Source: Escherichia coli (lineage in GTDB: Bacteria; Pseudomonadota; Gammaproteobacteria; Enterobacterales; Enterobacteriaceae). From it: a DNA stretch of 64,000 nucleotides. Below the pieces are notes generated by a model. That model did not search any database, was not told the origin of the DNA, and was given only the letters and a program-made list of their open reading frames with translations. Below are positions 2,447-58,871 of the stretch, piece after piece; position 1 is the first letter of the stretch; every line of letters starts with the position of its first letter. The DNA lies in the NCBI RefSeq assembly GCF_050320075.1, contig NZ_CP190018.1. One strand, written 5' to 3'. Made by a program: the position numbers and the translations under genes.

Positions 2447-3223
2447 ATGTCCGAAACAAAAAACGAACTTGAAGATCTGCTGGAAAAAGCAGCAACCGAA
2501 CCGGCGCACCGCCCGGCCTTTTTCCGTACTCTACTGGAATCCACCGTCTGGGTGCCGGGTACGGCGGCGCAGGGCGAGGCTGTGGTTGAAGATAGCGCGC
2601 TTGATTTACAGCACTGGGAAAAAGAAGACGGCACCAGCGTCATTCCTTTTTTTACCTCGTTAGAAGCACTTCAACAGGCGGTTGAAGACGAACAGGCATT
2701 TGTCGTAATGCCCGTTCGCACATTGTTTGAGATGACCCTTGGCGAAACGCTCTTCCTTAATGCCAAACTGCCAACCGGTAAAGAATTTATGCCGCGTGAA
2801 ATCAGTTTGTTGATTGGTGAAGAAGGAAATCCGCTGAGCAGCCAGGAAGTACTGGAGGGCGGTGAATCGCTGATATTATCGGAAGTCGCAGAGCCGCCAG
2901 CACAAATGATTGATTCACTCACCACCTTATTTAAAACTATTAAGCCGGTGAAGCGTGCTTTTATTTGTTCAATTAAAGAGAACGAAGAGGCACAGCCTAA
3001 TTTACTTATTGGCATTGAAGCCGATGGTGATATCGAAGAAATTATTCAGGCGGCGGGAAGTGTAGCGACCGATACATTACCTGGCGATGAACCCATCGAT
3101 ATTTGTCAGGTGAAAAAAGGGGAAAAAGGAATTAGCCACTTTATTACCGAACATATTGTGCCATTCTATGAACGTCGCTGGGGTGGTTTTTTGCGTGACT
3201 TTAAACAGAACCGGATAATCTAA
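2447..3223 (+). CDS. sseB: SseB protein (enhances serine sensitivity)
   Basis: ORF 2438-3223; ATG at 2447 gives 258 aa beginning MSETKNELEDLLEKAA; synteny next to pepB and sseA. Confidence 0.85.
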   Translation: MSETKNELEDLLEKAATEPAHRPAFFRTLLESTVWVPGTAAQGEAVVEDSALDLQHWEKEDGTSVIPFFTSLEALQQAVEDEQAFVVMPVRTLFEMTLGETLFLNAKLPTGKEFMPREISLLIGEEGNPLSSQEVLEGGESLILSEVAEPPAQMIDSLTTLFKTIKPVKRAFICSIKENEEAQPNLLIGIEADGDIEEIIQAAGSVATDTLPGDEPIDICQVKKGEKGISHFITEHIVPFYERRWGGFLRDFKQNRII

Positions 3224-37647: not shown

Positions 37648-37995
37648 GTGCGATTCGTGGCTAAATCCCCCGCAGAACGCAAAGCCGCGCAGCGCGCTCG
37701 GCAGTCCGCCGCCGGTGAGCGCAAAATTGAACTGGTGCTGGATAAGCAGGAGCAGGAAATGCTGGAGCGTAACTGTGCCACGCGTCGCCCCGGGCGTGCG
37801 CCTTACGAATTTGGGGAGTATATAGCGTTACTGATCCGCCAGGATGATGCACGCGTGCGCGGGCGTATAAAATCGATTAGCAGAAAACGTTGCGGTAAGT
37901 GCGGCGAGAAAGTTCCCGTTAATTCATGCCCGTGTAATGGTGACTCGCAATGCTGGGTGACTAAAGGCTGGCATGAAACGAAATTAATAGTGTGA
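37648..37995 (+). CDS. zinc-finger protein immediately upstream of the terminase genes (candidate late regulator)
   Basis: 115-aa basic protein with cysteine cluster CGKCGEKVPVNSCPCNGDSQC; stop codon lies inside a GTGACATGTCAC palindrome. Confidence 0.45.
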   Translation: MRFVAKSPAERKAAQRARQSAAGERKIELVLDKQEQEMLERNCATRRPGRAPYEFGEYIALLIRQDDARVRGRIKSISRKRCGKCGEKVPVNSCPCNGDSQCWVTKGWHETKLIV

Positions 37996-38044
37996 CATGT
38001 CACGAGTAGATTATGCATGATGAATTTGATGGGTTTTGAATACT

Positions 38045-40182: not shown

Positions 40183-40272
40183 TCCGTTAGCGGGGATAAT
40201 GACGGAGATATCCTCTGGTGAGGATAAAACAAAGCCAGCTCATCGGCTGGCTGTTTGTGACATGTCACGGTG

Positions 40273-40847: not shown

Positions 40848-40924
40848 TGGCGTGGCATGCAGGATTCGAACCTGCGACCAACCGCTTAGAAGGCGGTTGC
40901 TCTGTCCAACTGAGCTAATGCCAC
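40848..40924 (-). tRNA. tRNA-Arg (anticodon UCU), phage-encoded
   Basis: Manual cloverleaf: acceptor GTGGCAT/ATGCCAC, D-arm GCTC/GAGC, anticodon stem ACCGC/GCGGT, loop CTTCTAA (UCU), T-arm GCAGG-TTCGAAT-CCTGC, discriminator G, CCA encoded; closely resembles host argU. Confidence 0.85.
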
Positions 40925-43253: not shown

Positions 43254-43546
43254 CAGATTACGAAGACGATCAACTGAAAGAAGAAAACGCCCGTAAGCAA
43301 CGTGACATGGCACAGCGTGAAATTGATGACATTCGCTTTGTCATGAGCTGTGAACAGGGGCGTCGGGTTGTCTGGTCGGTACTGGAGAAAGGCCGTGTGT
43401 TTTCCGCTATCTCGCCGATGGACGCTATGGCAATGGCATTTAATGAGGGGCAACGCAATCTGGCGCTGGAACTGTTTCAGCGCGTTATGGCGCATTGCCC
43501 TGAACAGTATTTGAAGATGGCCAAAGAGGCCAGTGAACAGGAGTGA
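43250..43546 (+). CDS. hypothetical head-assembly protein
   Basis: 98-aa ORF coupled between portal and scaffold genes. Confidence 0.45.
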   Translation: MTDYEDDQLKEENARKQRDMAQREIDDIRFVMSCEQGRRVVWSVLEKGRVFSAISPMDAMAMAFNEGQRNLALELFQRVMAHCPEQYLKMAKEASEQE

Positions 43547-57092: not shown

Positions 57093-57464
57093 ATGAACAG
57101 AATTATATTAATGATTATTCTTATGCTTTTAGCTGTAAAATCTTTTGCAGATACTACCTCACCGTTAATGATTCAGCCTAAAAATGGGGAAACACTGGAG
57201 GACTCTAAAAAGCATACAATGGAATATTTTGGATGTATAAAAGGGCAGGCCGTAAAATACGCTAAGACAGGAGAAAGTGTTGATTCTATATCCAAAGCTT
57301 CGGTTGTGTCATGCGAGTCGTACATACAAAAGATTGCTGAATCAAATATATACTATTTAAATTCCTCTCAAGACGGTAAGCGGAAATTTATTGGAAGGCT
57401 TAAATCAGATGGTGAAAATTTAGCAACGAAATTTGCTATGGATGAAAAGCTAAAAAATAAATAG
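57093..57464 (+). CDS. secreted protein of unknown function (moron)
   Basis: 123-aa ORF with N-terminal signal peptide MNRIILMIILMLLAVKSFA; conspicuously AT-rich coding sequence. Confidence 0.5.
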   Translation: MNRIILMIILMLLAVKSFADTTSPLMIQPKNGETLEDSKKHTMEYFGCIKGQAVKYAKTGESVDSISKASVVSCESYIQKIAESNIYYLNSSQDGKRKFIGRLKSDGENLATKFAMDEKLKNK

Positions 57465-57471
57465 GTGACAC

Positions 57472-57768
57472 ATGCAAGCGATAGGATTCATTGTTTATAT
57501 CGTCGTTGGTCTTTTTCAGTTGGCAGCAATTATGGCTGGGCTTGAATCATGGTGGGGATTGCACTGGATAATTGCAGCCCCCATTGCTTTCATCGTGAGC
57601 TATATTCCATTTGTTGGAGCGATTGTTGGTATGGTTGGTGCTGTGGATGTATGGCGGTGGGAGTGGTGGCAGGCTGGCCTTCTCTTCTTTGGTGGGATCA
57701 TCTTTGCTATTGTCTGCGGTGGAATGTCATCATTTTTCGAACGGCTATCATTCAGAAAAGGAACGTGA
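57472..57768 (+). CDS. small inner-membrane protein (moron)
   Basis: 98-aa ORF with three hydrophobic helices; AGGTGA SD; stop codon inside a GTGACATGTCAC palindrome. Confidence 0.5.
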   Translation: MQAIGFIVYIVVGLFQLAAIMAGLESWWGLHWIIAAPIAFIVSYIPFVGAIVGMVGAVDVWRWEWWQAGLLFFGGIIFAIVCGGMSSFFERLSFRKGT

Positions 57769-57800
57769 CATGTCACAGGCCGCTTTCGCGGCCTTGTTTT

Positions 57801-57959
57801 TAACGAATGCCACCGCCACCCGGGCGGGAATCCGCAGAACGCCCACCGCAGCGGGAGCCGTCAGCGGCAGTATCGCTGTCGTGCTGACAACGACCGGCAA
57901 AGGCCTGAGTTGAAGCTACCAGAGACAACAAAACGAACAGTGCAGCAAATGCTTTTTTC
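57801..57959 (-). CDS. small secreted Cys-containing peptide (about 52 aa)
   Basis: Manual translation MKKAFAALFVLLSLVASTQAFAGRCQHDSDTAADGSRCGG...; signal peptide; terminator hairpin ggccgcgaaagcggcc right after the stop. Confidence 0.35.
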
Positions 57960-58030
57960 ATTGTGAAATTTCCATCTATAAGCCACCTCAATGTGGCGTC
58001 AATGAGTGTAGCACTGACTTTTGTTTCGTC

Positions 58031-58054
58031 CACAAAAAAGCCCGCAGCGCGGGC
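58031..58054 (-). terminator. intrinsic terminator after the DUF2335-like gene
   Basis: Hairpin gcccgcagcgcgggc followed on the minus strand by a U-run. Confidence 0.55.
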
Positions 58055-58603
58055 TTACTTTTCTTCAGGTTTGTTGTCTTCAGATTTCTTCTTGATGCTT
58101 GGTTTTTGTCTAAGAACGAAAATACCAGCCACTGCAACAACTGTACCGATCACTGTGCCAGCTAGAACTTCATGACCTGTTAAACCTAATAATGTTGCAC
58201 AAGCTACTGTAAAAATAGTTGCACTCAGGCCAAACCACTGCCCACGTTTATCTCTATTAATAGCCCCGTCAAGTGCCTTTTCCTCCATTTTCTGGCGGTG
58301 AGCAAACTCCTTCTCCGTCAGCTGGAAGATGCGTTCGGGGGCATCAGGTAAAATATCCTGATACCCGCGAAGCAGATAGGGGGGAGGAAGCGGACCCTGA
58401 AACGCATGGTGAGCGACAACTATCTCCTGAATTTCAGGGCGATCAAGAACTCTTGTGAAGGCATCTGGGTGTTGAATGATCTCGTTACTTAGCCCTTCCT
58501 CAACTTCCTCGAACTCAGTTTCTTCGTTATCACTTGGTTGCCCAATAGATTTTTGCATATTTGTCGAAGGACATTCCTTTAGCTTCTGGTTTTCCTCTTG
58601 CAT
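58055..58603 (-). CDS. membrane protein, DUF2335-like
   Basis: 182-aa protein: acidic N-terminus, PLPPPYLLRGY...ERIFQLTEKEFAHRQKMEEKALD...RGQWFG motif, two C-terminal transmembrane helices. Confidence 0.5.
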   Translation of the reverse strand: MQEENQKLKECPSTNMQKSIGQPSDNEETEFEEVEEGLSNEIIQHPDAFTRVLDRPEIQEIVVAHHAFQGPLPPPYLLRGYQDILPDAPERIFQLTEKEFAHRQKMEEKALDGAINRDKRGQWFGLSATIFTVACATLLGLTGHEVLAGTVIGTVVAVAGIFVLRQKPSIKKKSEDNKPEEK

Positions 58604-58871
58604 TTGAGTTTTTCCCTGTCACTATTGCCCATTTTCCGCCAGCAGGCGCTGCAATTTTTTTTCCGTTCTTTACTATATATTCAGCATAAACACGATTTTC
58701 TGACCGTCTGAGATCGTCTCCGACCATATTCATGTCTCTTGATATAACTTTGACGACAGAGTCTCGGTTTAAAGCCTTGGCATAGTTGGAGCCAGGAACG
58801 ATACCCAAAGGGGTGCCAGACTCTATAGCCAGCTCCTTGACATATCTTCTGCTCATATGAACCTCAACCAA
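58530..58871 (-). CDS. hypothetical protein; overlaps the start of the downstream DUF2335-like gene in another frame
   Basis: 113-aa ORF; real extent uncertain because of the 74-nt out-of-frame overlap. Confidence 0.35.
   Translation of the reverse strand: MVEVHMSRRYVKELAIESGTPLGIVPGSNYAKALNRDSVVKVISRDMNMVGDDLRRSENRVYAEYIVKNGKKIAAPAGGKWAIVTGKNSNARGKPEAKGMSFDKYAKIYWATK

What the first reader, a model, noticed from the sequence alone, without database searches (positions are those of the whole stretch)
57801..57959. Unannotated small secreted cysteine peptide on the minus strand
A 52-codon ORF absent from the length-filtered track encodes a signal peptide and a short Gly/Ser/Asp-rich mature region with two cysteines. 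It has its own terminator hairpin and is flanked by the GTGACATGTCAC palindrome. It could be a small periplasmic effector or exclusion factor.
Basis: seen in the sequence. Interest (0 to 1): 0.4.

Follow-up and report, generated by a model that had tools for sequence, protein, structure and literature searches.

The report
Small secreted peptide moron in prophage
A real, strongly conserved 53-codon gene sits in an E. coli prophage as a self-contained cassette and very probably exports a 31-residue, disulfide-looped peptide to the periplasm; it is already annotated in public genomes as a hypothetical protein, its function is unknown, and its core is a widespread cell-envelope mini-domain that Pfam and NCBIfam do not model.

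Summary
The ORF is real but slightly mis-described. It runs from ATG 57961 to stop 57800 on the minus strand and has 53 codons. It is 100% identical to RefSeq WP_000708858.1 and belongs to PHROG 14503, which NCBI elsewhere calls "transmembrane anchored protein".

Across eight homologues from six genera, synonymous sites are saturated (pS about 0.70). The mature peptide barely changes (pN 0.12), while the signal peptide drifts (pN 0.32).

The gene travels as a block of about 290 nt: terminator hairpin, promoter-like site, 5' hairpin, ORF, 3' hairpin, then the GTGACATGTCAC palindrome. The flanks beyond this block differ among at least eight phage contexts. The gene is also the only annotated non-mobilisation gene on a 3.4-kb mobilisable plasmid.

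The mature core is C-x12-C-G-x-R-[SA]-A-x-x-R-P-G-G. It is a stand-alone copy of an extracytoplasmic module found in 367 protein clusters, from Proteobacteria to cyanobacteria. It has no Pfam, NCBIfam, PDB or literature match. Where larger carriers hold a known domain, it is mostly peptidoglycan-binding (SH3_3, PG_binding_1).

Best reading: a lysogenic-conversion moron that secretes a periplasmic, cell-wall-associated mini-protein. An exclusion or protection role is plausible but untested. The palindrome lies on one side only, and the 3' hairpin's T-run faces the opposite strand.

The parts
57800..57961 (-). CDS of the 53-aa precursor (ATG 57961-57959; stop TAA 57802-57800).
   Evidence: RefSeq WP_000708858.1. 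(PHROG 14503, E = 2e-40). (conservation and purifying selection).
57896..57961 (-). Signal-peptide coding part (residues 1-22, MKKAFAALFVLLSLVASTQAFA). Predicted signal peptidase I cut after Ala22.
   Evidence: pN is 0.32 here against 0.12 in the mature part. Cleavage is inferred, not measured.
57803..57895 (-). Mature peptide coding part (residues 23-53, GRCQHDSDTAADGSRCGGRSADSRPGGGGIR; 3060 Da, pI 8.1). It carries the C25-x12-C38 core motif.
   Evidence: GC content is 0.69.
57777..57794 (.). GC-rich hairpin AGGCCGCTTTCGCGGCCT, 5 nt after the stop codon. It is the 3' hairpin of the cassette and also the intrinsic terminator of the convergent plus-strand 98-aa gene (T-run on the plus strand).
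   Evidence: (present after the ORF in 80/80 loci). (minimum free energy -17.9 kcal/mol together with the palindrome, z = -4.4).
57765..57776 (.). Perfect palindrome GTGACATGTCAC. It marks the exact distal edge of the conserved cassette and overlaps the TGA stop of the 98-aa plus-strand ORF.
   Evidence: 4 matches against 0.11 expected. (exact copy in 70 of 80 loci, with sequence diverging immediately beyond it). (same palindrome next to terminators in phiV10).
57982..57997 (-). 5-bp inverted repeat GCCAC-ATTGAG-GTGGC, 20 nt upstream of the ATG. Candidate 5'-terminal stem-loop of the mRNA, or an operator.
   Evidence: 86% of cells paired, 3 of 5 pairs changed on both sides, and 0 of 500 shuffles reach the covariation score. 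A Pseudomonas phage copy has GCGCC/GGCGC at the same place. Only 12 related sequences, so this is suggestive.
58005..58032 (-). Promoter-like site TGGACG (58032-58027), a 16-nt spacer, then TGc-TACACT (58010-58005). The -10-like hexamer keeps A2 and T6 across genera (TACAAT, TAAACT, TACGCT, AATACT).
   Evidence: Read. It scores below the threshold of the scan (8 of 12 matches). Inferred; no transcription-start data.
58038..58056 (-). Intrinsic terminator AAGCCCGCGCTGCGGGCTT followed by TTTTTT, ending the upstream DUF2335 gene. It is the proximal edge of the conserved cassette.
   Evidence: the hairpin is conserved while the sequence upstream of it differs among at least eight contexts.

Best explanation
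The region 57765-58056 is a self-contained moron cassette inside an epsilon15/phiV10-like (Uetakevirus) prophage. It is transcribed against the late operon.

**Inferred mechanism**
1. Transcription starts at the cassette's own weak sigma-70-type promoter, just downstream of the terminator of the preceding gene.
2. The mRNA begins with a short stem-loop and ends in a GC-rich hairpin.
3. The 53-aa precursor is exported by the Sec pathway and cut by signal peptidase I after Ala22.
4. The 31-residue product (3.06 kDa) is closed by a C25-C38 disulfide in the periplasm.

**What the product is.** It is the free-standing form of a small extracytoplasmic module, G-[NP]-C-x-[HY]-x-x-[DQ]-x-A-x-D-G-S-R-C-G-x-R-[SA]-A-x-x-R-P-G-G. 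Many diderm bacteria carry this module after signal peptides, or at the periplasmic ends of membrane proteins and lipoproteins. In some carriers it is fused to peptidoglycan-binding domains.

**Most likely role.** The peptide most likely acts alone in the periplasm, on the cell wall or on wall-processing or wall-penetrating proteins. This would give the lysogen or plasmid host an envelope-level advantage, such as exclusion of incoming phage or protection from wall-degrading attack.

**Shown versus inferred**
- Shown: it is a real, selected coding gene; the cassette is modular and mobile; the motif family exists and is extracytoplasmic.
- Inferred: export, cleavage and disulfide (about 0.85); cell-wall association (about 0.4); an exclusion or protection phenotype (about 0.25).
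For: **Coding and under selection**
- Homologues of 50-55 aa occur in E. coli, Shigella, Citrobacter, Klebsiella, Cronobacter, Pectobacterium, Dickeya, Salmonella and Rahnella, with a near-invariant mature core.
- Nei-Gojobori comparison of 8 divergent copies gives pS about 0.70, pN 0.117 in the mature part and 0.32 in the signal peptide.
- In 80 viral contigs, 18 of 21 variable sites are at third codon positions.

**Export**
- The N-terminus has the signal-peptide layout and an A-x-A site.
- In larger proteins the motif always follows a signal peptide or a transmembrane helix.

**Cassette**
- The block from hairpin to palindrome is identical in 80 loci, while both flanks differ.
- phiV10 lacks the ORF but keeps the hairpin and palindrome.
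- The gene occupies several moron slots. These are the ejection-protein/tailspike slot in E. coli, Klebsiella and Pseudomonas phages, the position next to ant in Stx phage TL-2011b, and the Q-to-lysis slot in a Rahnella prophage.
- It also lies among tail genes in Pectobacterium and Dickeya.
- On a 3.4-kb MOB plasmid it is the only annotated gene besides the mobilisation genes, and a 3.1-kb Salmonella contig holds it beside a relaxase gene and one 176-aa ORF.
- The cassette is present in 421-530 of 5,426 complete E. coli genomes.

**Module family**
- 367 representative proteins match at E <= 1e-3, and 931 clusters match a profile of the short forms.
- Carriers include Pasteurellaceae (core locus next to htpG), Rhizobiales, Burkholderiales and cyanobacteria.
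- A 4-Cys, roughly 65-aa extended form gives a confident model (pLDDT 86.5).

**Cell-wall link**
- Among 145 carriers, nearly all credible co-occurring Pfam domains are SH3_3 (3 proteins) and PG_binding_1 (2 proteins); the one other is T2SS-T3SS_pil_N.

**Acts alone**
- No neighbouring gene is conserved.
Against: - There is no expression, export or cleavage data of any kind. No signal-peptide predictor was available, so export rests on manual rules.
- The predicted promoter is weak (8 of 12 consensus matches) and fell below the scan threshold.
- The 3' hairpin lacks a U-tract on the ORF's strand.
- The cell-wall link rests on only 5 of 145 carrier proteins. Most carriers have no recognisable domain at all.
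- The model of the minimal peptide has only moderate confidence (pLDDT 69.5), and no solved structure resembles either model.
- Core-chromosome copies in Pasteurellaceae and an unnamed 1.65-Mb genome suggest a housekeeping role rather than a dedicated anti-phage one.
- No defence-system model matches.
- The homologues used for the selection test were found by protein similarity, which biases pN downward. It cannot, however, create saturated pS.
Confidence: 0.5

Rival explanations
1. The N-terminal hydrophobic stretch is not cleaved. It anchors the peptide in the inner membrane (type II topology), as the database name 'transmembrane anchored protein' implies. The 31-residue tail would then work while tethered at the membrane surface.
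For: - Many larger family members carry the motif right next to a genuine transmembrane helix through a short linker, so a membrane-proximal position is natural for this module.
- The NCBI and PHROG names say 'membrane anchored' or 'membrane associated'.
Against: - The hydrophobic core is only 13-14 residues long and is followed by a canonical A-x-A site.
- That site is conserved in 56-64 of 72 homologues, although the rest of the segment drifts.
- The database name appears to trace to an unreviewed 'putative' phage annotation and comes with no experimental support.
Confidence: 0.15
2. The gene serves the phage's own lytic cycle in epsilon15-like podoviruses rather than the lysogen. For example, it might modulate the ejection-protein channel, wall penetration or lysis timing.
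For: - It recurs in the same slot, between the ~850-aa ejection protein and the tailspike gene, in E. coli, Klebsiella, Buttiauxella-type and Pseudomonas phages.
- In the Pseudomonas phage it is co-oriented with the late genes.
Against: - phiV10 and other Uetakeviruses lack it.
- In enterobacterial phages it is antisense to the late operon and bracketed by terminators.
- It also lives in unrelated phage types, tiny plasmids and core chromosomes.
Confidence: 0.1
3. The peptide leaves the cell and acts outside it as a toxin, bacteriocin or signal, in the way Sec-exported, DsbA-oxidised heat-stable enterotoxin does.
For: - It is a small Sec-type precursor with a disulfide.
- It is present in pathogens such as ETEC H10407 and an Stx phage.
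- It is the only annotated non-mobilisation gene on a small plasmid, as bacteriocin genes often are.
Against: - No immunity, export or processing gene accompanies it.
- The same module is an integral part of membrane-tethered proteins in soil and aquatic bacteria.
- It has no similarity to any toxin or bacteriocin family.
- It has 2 Cys, against 6 in heat-stable enterotoxin STa (general knowledge).
Confidence: 0.07
4. It is a periplasmic metal-binding or redox peptide that uses Cys25, His27, Asp28/30/34 and Cys38.
For: - The phage subfamily has C-x-H-D-x-D ... D-G-S-x-C.
- This recalls Cys-bounded calcium-binding loops such as Excalibur (recalled from memory, not tested).
Against: - His27 and Asp28 are not conserved in the wider family, where the positions read Y, P, S or W and D is often replaced by Q.
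- The conserved residues are instead Gly and three Arg, which do not bind cations.
- The 4-Cys variants suggest structural disulfides.
- No Pfam metal-binding family matches even at E <= 10.
Confidence: 0.06
5. It is not a gene. The ORF is a by-product of conserved non-coding sequence (terminators, a small RNA) between convergent genes.
For: - The ORF is short and lies between two hairpins.
- The region is highly conserved at the DNA level within E. coli.
Against: - Across genera the DNA is saturated at synonymous sites, yet the mature peptide is kept.
- The start codon, Shine-Dalgarno-like purines, length and stop position are conserved.
- The same peptide motif occurs inside hundreds of unrelated larger proteins.
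- No Rfam family matches.
Confidence: 0.02

Closest known systems
PHROG 14503 / PHROG 3117, NCBI 'transmembrane anchored protein' (WP_000708858.1; phage TL-2011b gp43, YP_007001994.1)
   Same: The protein is identical to these entries. It gives a full-length profile match (E = 2e-40) with the same length and motif.
   Different: Nothing differs. This is the family it belongs to, but the family has no characterised member and its name is an unreviewed prediction.
Classical prophage morons (the promoter-gene-terminator units first defined in HK97/HK022, such as lambda bor and lom)
   Same: It is a stand-alone unit bracketed by terminators with a promoter-like site. It is antisense to late genes, present or absent among close relatives, and found in several known moron slots.
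   Different: The product is much smaller (31 residues when mature). It is neither a lipoprotein like Bor nor an outer-membrane barrel like Lom. Expression in the lysogen has not been shown.
Phage T4 Spackle (Sp), a small periplasmic superinfection-exclusion protein that blocks the incoming tail lysozyme (general knowledge)
   Same: It is a phage-encoded, Sec-exported small periplasmic protein. The analogy is attractive because the gene sits next to the ejection and transglycosylase genes of the prophage.
   Different: There is no sequence or fold similarity, and no defence or exclusion model matches. Spackle's mature form is roughly twice as long. The activity was not tested here.
Ivy-type periplasmic lysozyme and lytic-transglycosylase inhibitors, which use a short disulfide-bounded CKPHDC loop (general knowledge)
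   Same: It is periplasmic and has a disulfide-bounded loop that contains His-Asp in the phage subfamily (C-Q-H-D...).
   Different: The loop here is 12 residues long, not 4. His-Asp is not conserved in the wider family. There is no Pfam Ivy match. This is a resemblance only.
Excalibur extracellular calcium-binding domain (Pfam PF05901; motif recalled from memory)
   Same: Both are short extracytoplasmic modules bounded by two Cys with an Asp/Gly-rich segment before the second Cys. Both occur alone or attached to other envelope domains.
   Different: There is no profile match even at E <= 10. The D-x-D-x-D-G-x-x-C-E signature is absent, while the conserved C-G-x-R-[SA]-A-x-x-R-P-G-G tail is unique to this family.

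Membership tests
PHROG 14503 / NCBI 'transmembrane anchored protein' family | Full-length, significant match to the family profile | tested here: met
   PHROG 14503 E = 2.3e-40 over residues 1-53 of 53. PHROG 3117 E = 4.1e-36. Identical to WP_000708858.1.
PHROG 14503 / NCBI 'transmembrane anchored protein' family | Hydrophobic N-terminus followed by the C-x12-C-G-G-R-S-A-D-S-R-P-G-G core | tested here: met
   Alignments A1 and A2 show the core invariant or nearly so in 20-31 homologues.
Prophage moron | Present in some and absent from other closely related phages at the same position | tested here: met
   phiV10 keeps only the palindrome, the hairpin and 23 nt of the ORF's 3' end. phiv142-3, HEMP4 and the window carry the gene.
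Prophage moron | Bracketed by its own transcription signals (promoter upstream, terminator downstream) | tested here: inconclusive
   Hairpins lie on both sides. The promoter-like site TGGACG-16-TGcTACACT is conserved but weak and unverified. The 3' hairpin has no U-tract on this strand.
Prophage moron | Moves as a unit between unrelated genomic contexts | tested here: met
   The block is identical while at least eight different flanks occur on each side in 80 viral contigs. It is also found in other phage types and in plasmids.
Prophage moron | Expressed from the repressed prophage | not testable with these tools
   No transcriptome or Ribo-seq data are accessible. No paper mentions the protein.
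Sec signal peptide cleaved by signal peptidase I | Positive n-region, 10-15-residue hydrophobic core, small residues at -3 and -1 | tested here: met
   MKK, then AFAALFVLLSLVAS (mean hydropathy 2.49), then A-F-A|G. Among 72 homologues, 56 have Ala at -1 and 64 have A/S/V at -3. Checked by manual rules; no predictor was run.
Sec signal peptide cleaved by signal peptidase I | Actual export and cleavage | not testable with these tools
   Needs fusion reporters or mass spectrometry.
Bacterial lipoprotein (signal peptidase II) | Lipobox [LVI][ASTVI][GAS]-C, with Cys as the first mature residue | tested here: not met
   The sequence reads A-F-A-G-R-C. A residue (R, N or P) always separates Gly from Cys, and G-x-C is also conserved in internal copies that have no signal peptide.
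Known anti-phage defence or exclusion proteins (PADLOC models; T4 Sp/Imm type) | Sequence match to a defence or exclusion family | tested here: not met
   No PADLOC hit at E <= 0.1. No Pfam or NCBIfam hit.
Known anti-phage defence or exclusion proteins (PADLOC models; T4 Sp/Imm type) | Reduces infection by a superinfecting phage | not testable with these tools
   Requires plating assays.
Excalibur or other catalogued small Cys-bounded extracytoplasmic domains (Pfam) | Profile match to the domain | tested here: not met
   No Pfam family at E <= 10 for the mature peptide or for seven other motif segments. None at E <= 1 for the precursor.
Heat-stable enterotoxin or microcin-type secreted peptides | Family profile match, several disulfides or a double-glycine leader, and dedicated export or immunity genes | tested here: not met
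   No profile match. Only two Cys. A Sec-type leader, not a double-glycine one. No conserved neighbour gene.

The most novel reading that the evidence does not exclude
The C-x12-C-G-x-R-[SA]-A-x-x-R-P-G-G module is a previously undescribed periplasmic mini-fold that recognises peptidoglycan or a universal wall-processing enzyme. Phages and small plasmids have captured its minimal 31-residue form. They would use it as a diffusible decoy or inhibitor that blocks wall penetration by incoming phage ejection proteins (lytic transglycosylases) or by other wall-degrading weapons. This would be a new, single-peptide mechanism of superinfection exclusion or envelope immunity.
Probability: 0.15. Interest if true: 0.7.

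Novelty: new member of a known kind. Interest (0 to 1): 0.35.

Why it matters
About one in ten complete E. coli genomes carries this cassette, including ETEC H10407 and an Stx phage. It also spreads on tiny mobilisable plasmids, so it very likely confers some benefit on its own. No function is known for it.

Its core is a compact extracytoplasmic module that is widespread in diderm bacteria. Pfam and NCBIfam do not model it, and no solved structure resembles it. The 31-residue phage version could be made by peptide synthesis, which makes it a convenient entry point for finding what the whole module binds.

If the target is the cell wall or wall-penetrating enzymes, the peptide would be a minimal exclusion or immunity factor. 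If not, it remains one more conserved small envelope protein of unknown role, which is an ordinary outcome for prophage morons.

Tried and rejected
**Longer reading frame rejected**
- The 77-aa GTG-start version (57800-58033, PHROG 3117 style) is rejected as the real start.
- N-terminal extensions in homologues are unrelated to each other, whereas the MKK start and its purine-rich spacer are conserved.
- The GTG also lies inside the T-tail of the upstream terminator.

**Other local features rejected**
- A five-codon upstream mini-ORF (ATG GAA ATT TCA CAA TGA) overlaps the start as ATGA and has a GAGGTGG ribosome-binding site. It is not conserved in other genera, and its ribosome-binding site is simply the 3' arm of the conserved hairpin.
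- The alternative promoter TTGACG-16-TATAGA has a -35 element that is not conserved, and it lacks the final T of the -10 element.

**Searches that found nothing**
- Pfam, NCBIfam and PADLOC gave no meaningful hit. The weak NCBIfam hits HxsA3 (E = 0.07) and MarB (E = 0.16) are noise.
- The weak DUF6719 hit on one 4-Cys relative (E = 0.034) was not reproduced on isolated segments.
- The PDB sequence search found nothing.
- Rfam found nothing relevant.
- Five literature searches found nothing on the protein. The terms were its name, accession and peptide strings, plus a phiV10/epsilon15/moron search.
- Cluster names were uninformative.
- No conserved neighbour gene was found.

**Neighbour slots**
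- The neighbouring 123-aa and 98-aa ORFs are not homologous to the genes in the same slots of the Klebsiella relative, which include a Rap1a-like one.

**Palindrome**
- Identifying it as a CRP or LexA site was considered and dropped. Its spacing and half-sites do not fit those consensus sequences as I recall them.
Full report
**1. What is in the sequence**

On the minus strand an ATG at 57961-57959 opens a frame that ends at TAA 57802-57800. It encodes 53 residues: MKKAFAALFVLLSLVASTQAFAGRCQHDSDTAADGSRCGGRSADSRPGGGGIR. The mechanical ORF list shows it as the 3' part of a 77-aa GTG-start ORF (57800-58033).

The N-terminus has two lysines, a 14-residue hydrophobic core (mean hydropathy 2.49) and A-F-A. 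The remaining 31 residues are hydrophilic (G8 R5 D4 S4 A3 C2; 3060 Da, pI 8.1).

**2. Where the window comes from**

The region is 100% identical to the E. coli YZLc1-3 chromosome. There it lies in a Uetakevirus-type (epsilon15/phiV10-like) prophage integrated between guaA and yfgI.

The ORF is annotated there as WP_000708858.1, 'hypothetical protein'. In phage TL-2011b and many genomes the same protein is called 'transmembrane anchored protein'. It matches PHROG 14503 at E = 2e-40.

The gene sits in a minus-strand island of five genes: this ORF, a DUF2335 membrane protein, a hypothetical gene, a BRO-N protein and an epsilon15 gp19-like gene. The island interrupts the plus-strand late operon between the ~850-aa ejection protein and the tail-fibre gene.

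**3. Is it a gene?**

Yes.

- Homologues of 50-55 aa occur in at least ten genera of Enterobacterales. The mature segment C-Q-H-D-x-D-T-A-A-D-G-S-R-C-G-G-R-S-A-D-S-R-P-G-G is nearly invariant, while the hydrophobic N-terminus varies.
- I compared eight divergent copies by the Nei-Gojobori method. They were the window, Klebsiella, Pectobacterium and Dickeya prophages, a Rahnella megaplasmid prophage, two small plasmids and an IncF plasmid.
- Synonymous differences are saturated (pS about 0.70). Non-synonymous differences are 0.117 in the mature part and 0.32 in the signal peptide.
- Among 80 viral contigs, 34 distinct nucleotide versions encode essentially one protein, and 18 of 21 variable sites are third positions. 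That set was ranked by protein identity, so it is biased.
- N-terminal extensions predicted in some records share no similarity, whereas the MKK start with a purine-rich stretch 8-13 nt upstream is conserved. The 53-aa form is therefore the real product.
- No Rfam family covers the region.

**4. Export**

No signal-peptide predictor was available, so this rests on rules and comparison.

- Of 72 stand-alone homologues, 56 have Ala three residues before the first Cys and 64 have A, S or V two residues further up. This is the A-x-A pattern of signal peptidase I, and cleavage there would leave G-x-C as the mature N-terminus.
- There is no lipobox. A residue always separates Gly from Cys, and G-x-C is also conserved in internal copies.
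- In larger proteins the motif is always placed after a signal peptide or a transmembrane helix.
- I infer Sec export, cleavage after Ala22 and a C25-C38 disulfide. None of this has been measured.

**5. The cassette**

In 80 related viral loci one block is conserved. In order, it consists of:

1. The terminator hairpin of the preceding gene (window 58038-58056).
2. About 75 nt of leader.
3. The ORF.
4. AAACA followed by the hairpin GGCCGCGAAAGCGGCC (57777-57794).
5. The palindrome TGTGACATGTCAC (57765-57776).

The sequence outside both ends differs among at least eight contexts on each side. The exact palindrome is present in 70 of the 80 loci.

phiV10 lacks the ORF but keeps the palindrome, the hairpin and 23 nt of the ORF's 3' end. 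The unit therefore behaves as a moron.

Its 3' hairpin is shared with the convergent 98-aa plus-strand gene, and the T-run is on the plus strand only. On the ORF's strand the hairpin is followed by a second small hairpin formed by the palindrome (together -17.9 kcal/mol, z = -4.4).

Upstream, a -10-like hexamer keeps its key positions across genera: TACACT at 58010-58005 with TG two bases before it, and TACAAT, TAAACT, TACGCT or AATACT elsewhere. A -35-like TGGACG lies 16 nt further up. This combination scores 8 of 12 and fell below the scan threshold.

Directly after it comes a 5-bp inverted repeat (GCCAC/GTGGC, 57982-57997) that changes by compensatory substitutions:

| Source | Stem arms |
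|---|---|
| Pectobacterium (two species) | CCGC/GCGG and CTGC/GCAG |
| Enterobacter | GCCGUC/GAUGGC |
| Pseudomonas phage | GCGCC/GGCGC |

On the 12-sequence alignment 86% of cells pair, 3 of 5 pairs change on both sides, and no shuffle of 500 reaches the covariation score. This fits a 5'-terminal mRNA stem-loop or an operator. With 12 related sequences it is only suggestive.

**6. Where else the gene lives**

| Context |
|---|
| Same slot (ejection protein to tailspike) in Klebsiella; also in Pseudomonas alloputida prophages, where it is co-oriented with late genes and has a canonical terminator |
| Next to ant in Stx phage TL-2011b |
| Between the antiterminator and lysis genes of a Rahnella prophage |
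| Among tail genes in Pectobacterium and Dickeya |
| Only annotated non-mobilisation gene on a 3.4-kb MOBP plasmid; on a 3.1-kb Salmonella contig beside a relaxase gene and one 176-aa ORF |
| Core chromosomal loci: next to htpG in Haemophilus and Rodentibacter; between bacA and ffh in an unnamed 1.65-Mb genome |

The cassette is found in 530 of 5,426 complete E. coli genomes, and 421 of these hold at least 80% of it. No neighbouring gene is conserved across contexts, so the product must work with something the host already has.

**7. The motif is a widespread module**

A profile of the family, searched against 1.84 billion representative proteins, found 367 proteins at E <= 1e-3. A profile of the short forms found 931 clusters in the 5.8-billion-protein collection.

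The shared element is [YF]-x-G-[NP]-C-x-[HY]-x-x-[DQ]-x-A-x-D-G-S-R-C-G-x-R-[SA]-A-x-x-R-P-G-G. Among the 145 hits that were aligned, out of the 150 best listed, it occurs as follows:

- alone after a signal peptide: 42 short proteins;
- at the extreme C-terminus of larger membrane proteins or lipoproteins: 41;
- at the N-terminus, often just before a transmembrane helix: 36;
- internally: 11;
- in two or three copies: 15.

Carriers include Enterobacterales, Pasteurellaceae, Vibrio, Rhizobiales, Burkholderiales, cyanobacteria and Bacteriovorax.

A roughly 65-residue extended form has the layout helix, C-x-C-P-Y core, helix, with four Cys. It gives a confident model (pLDDT 86.5, pTM 0.71). The extra Cys pair links the start of the core to the segment after RPGG, which suggests that the tail packs back on the N-terminal strand. 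The minimal 31-35-residue form models less confidently (pLDDT 69.5).

Several searches returned nothing:

- Neither model resembles any solved structure.
- No PDB sequence matches.
- No Pfam or NCBIfam model matches, even at E <= 10.
- No paper contains the motif.

**8. What it probably does**

The only functional association I could extract is domain co-occurrence. Among 145 carriers, very few have any Pfam domain, and nearly all the credible ones are bacterial SH3_3 (3 proteins) and PG_binding_1 (2 proteins). Both are cell-wall-binding modules. The one other credible hit is a T2SS-T3SS_pil_N domain.

Four observations point the same way:

- the strictly extracytoplasmic placement;
- the conserved Arg/Gly face;
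- the absence of a partner gene;
- the recurrent position beside the genes for the T7-gp14-type, SLT-transglycosylase and ~850-aa ejection proteins.

From these I favour a periplasmic mini-protein that associates with the wall or with wall-processing or wall-penetrating proteins.

For a prophage or plasmid, the pay-off would be exclusion of incoming phage or protection from wall-degrading attack. This is analogous in logic to T4 Spackle or to Ivy-type inhibitors, but not in sequence. It is an inference: no defence model matches, and core-chromosome copies argue for a more general envelope role.

My confidences are:

| Claim | Confidence |
|---|---|
| Real translated gene | about 0.95 |
| Exported and cleaved | about 0.85 |
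| Wall-associated | about 0.4 |
| Exclusion or protection phenotype | about 0.25 |

**9. The palindrome**

GTGACATGTCAC occurs at 37992, 40257 and 57765, and at 43302 with one mismatch. That is 4 matches against 0.11 expected.

- The 37992 copy is at the end of the gene preceding the small terminase subunit, at the head of the late operon.
- The 40257 copy is 3 nt after the terminator that follows the large terminase gene, facing a minus-strand Gp49-family gene.
- The 57765 copy abuts the terminator described above.

phiV10 has it at the two equivalent terminator sites. Klebsiella and Buttiauxella relatives keep it next to the same hairpin although the flanks have diverged. It is thus a conserved feature of this phage group at convergent junctions, and it coincides with a mosaic boundary. 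Its role (regulator site, RNA 3' structure or recombination boundary) is unexplained. It lies on one side of the ORF only.

**10. Verdict**

The 'secreted cysteine peptide' reading is well supported, and the 'exclusion factor' reading is open.

The gene belongs to a catalogued but uncharacterised family, so it is not new as a sequence. What this analysis adds is:

- the evidence for selection;
- the exact cassette anatomy;
- the recognition that the peptide is the minimal form of a widespread extracytoplasmic module, unmodelled in Pfam and NCBIfam, with a weak link to the cell wall.

Interest is moderate.

Noticed in passing
window 37992-38003, 40257-40268, 57765-57776 (exact); 43302-43313 (one mismatch); phiV10 (L095) 2262 and 19493: The 12-bp perfect palindrome GTGACATGTCAC recurs at the head of the late operon and beside two convergent terminators (4 matches against 0.11 expected). 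It is conserved in phiV10 and in Klebsiella and Buttiauxella relatives, and it coincides with a mosaic boundary. Its function is unknown.
   Followed up: partly
window 57093-57464 (+): A 123-aa ORF with a signal-peptide-like N-terminus and very low GC (0.336 against 0.50 for the prophage). It matches no family. The equivalent slot in a Klebsiella relative (L084 4711-5094) holds an unrelated Rap1a-like (T6SS immunity family) gene, so this is a second variable moron slot.
   Followed up: partly
window 57472-57768 (+): A 98-aa, very hydrophobic, Trp/Gly-rich membrane protein (PHROG 3075, unknown function; sub-threshold holin-family hit, E = 0.027). It ends the plus-strand block, and its stop codon lies inside the palindrome.
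   Followed up: no
window 58055-58871 (-): The gene immediately upstream of the cassette is variable among E. coli prophages. Here it is a DUF2335 membrane protein overlapping a 113-aa ORF. Elsewhere it is a YafO-family toxin, a DUF4760 protein or other genes, each ending in the same terminator hairpin with different loop sequences.
   Followed up: partly
window about 40848-40924 (-) (L003 15635-15711): The prophage carries a tRNA-Arg gene between the Gp49-family gene and the portal region, according to the RefSeq annotation of the identical chromosome.
   Followed up: no
proteins P0076, P0096, P0097, P0120, P0123, P0131, P0132, P0161, P0176, P0179, P0181, P0201, P0165 (metagenomic; Glaciecola L159): A recurrent architecture with no Pfam match anywhere: signal or lipoprotein peptide, the motif ending in RPGGRNPDTDW, one transmembrane helix, a low-complexity linker, and a conserved cytoplasmic domain of about 100 aa (...NEYDAA..YM..Q...). 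It looks like a transmembrane sensor or anchor family built on the same module.
   Followed up: no
[not shown]
   Followed up: partly
L138, L140, L144, L146 (Haemophilus, Rodentibacter), position 3001-3156: Pasteurellaceae keep a stand-alone 51-aa family member in a conserved core locus next to htpG, an HTH gene, an ArsC-family gene, an M20 peptidase gene and a VanY-type gene. The family is therefore not purely a mobile-element gene.
   Followed up: partly
L168, L172, L174, L184 (Microvirga, Aureimonas), just downstream of the motif gene: A variant of the peptide with two extra C-terminal Cys (ACTNS.D.A.DGS.CG.RA.GC..GGR.G.C) is followed by a gene for a staphylococcal-nuclease-like (SNase) protein in these four genomes. 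Phormidesmis (L180) has the same SNase-like neighbour but carries the ordinary two-Cys core inside a 158-aa protein.
   Followed up: no
NZ_CP123240.1 (the chromosome identical to the window): The same strain carries a second copy of the cassette elsewhere in its chromosome (2 places in the record), outside the window. Up to 3 copies per genome occur in E. coli.
   Followed up: no
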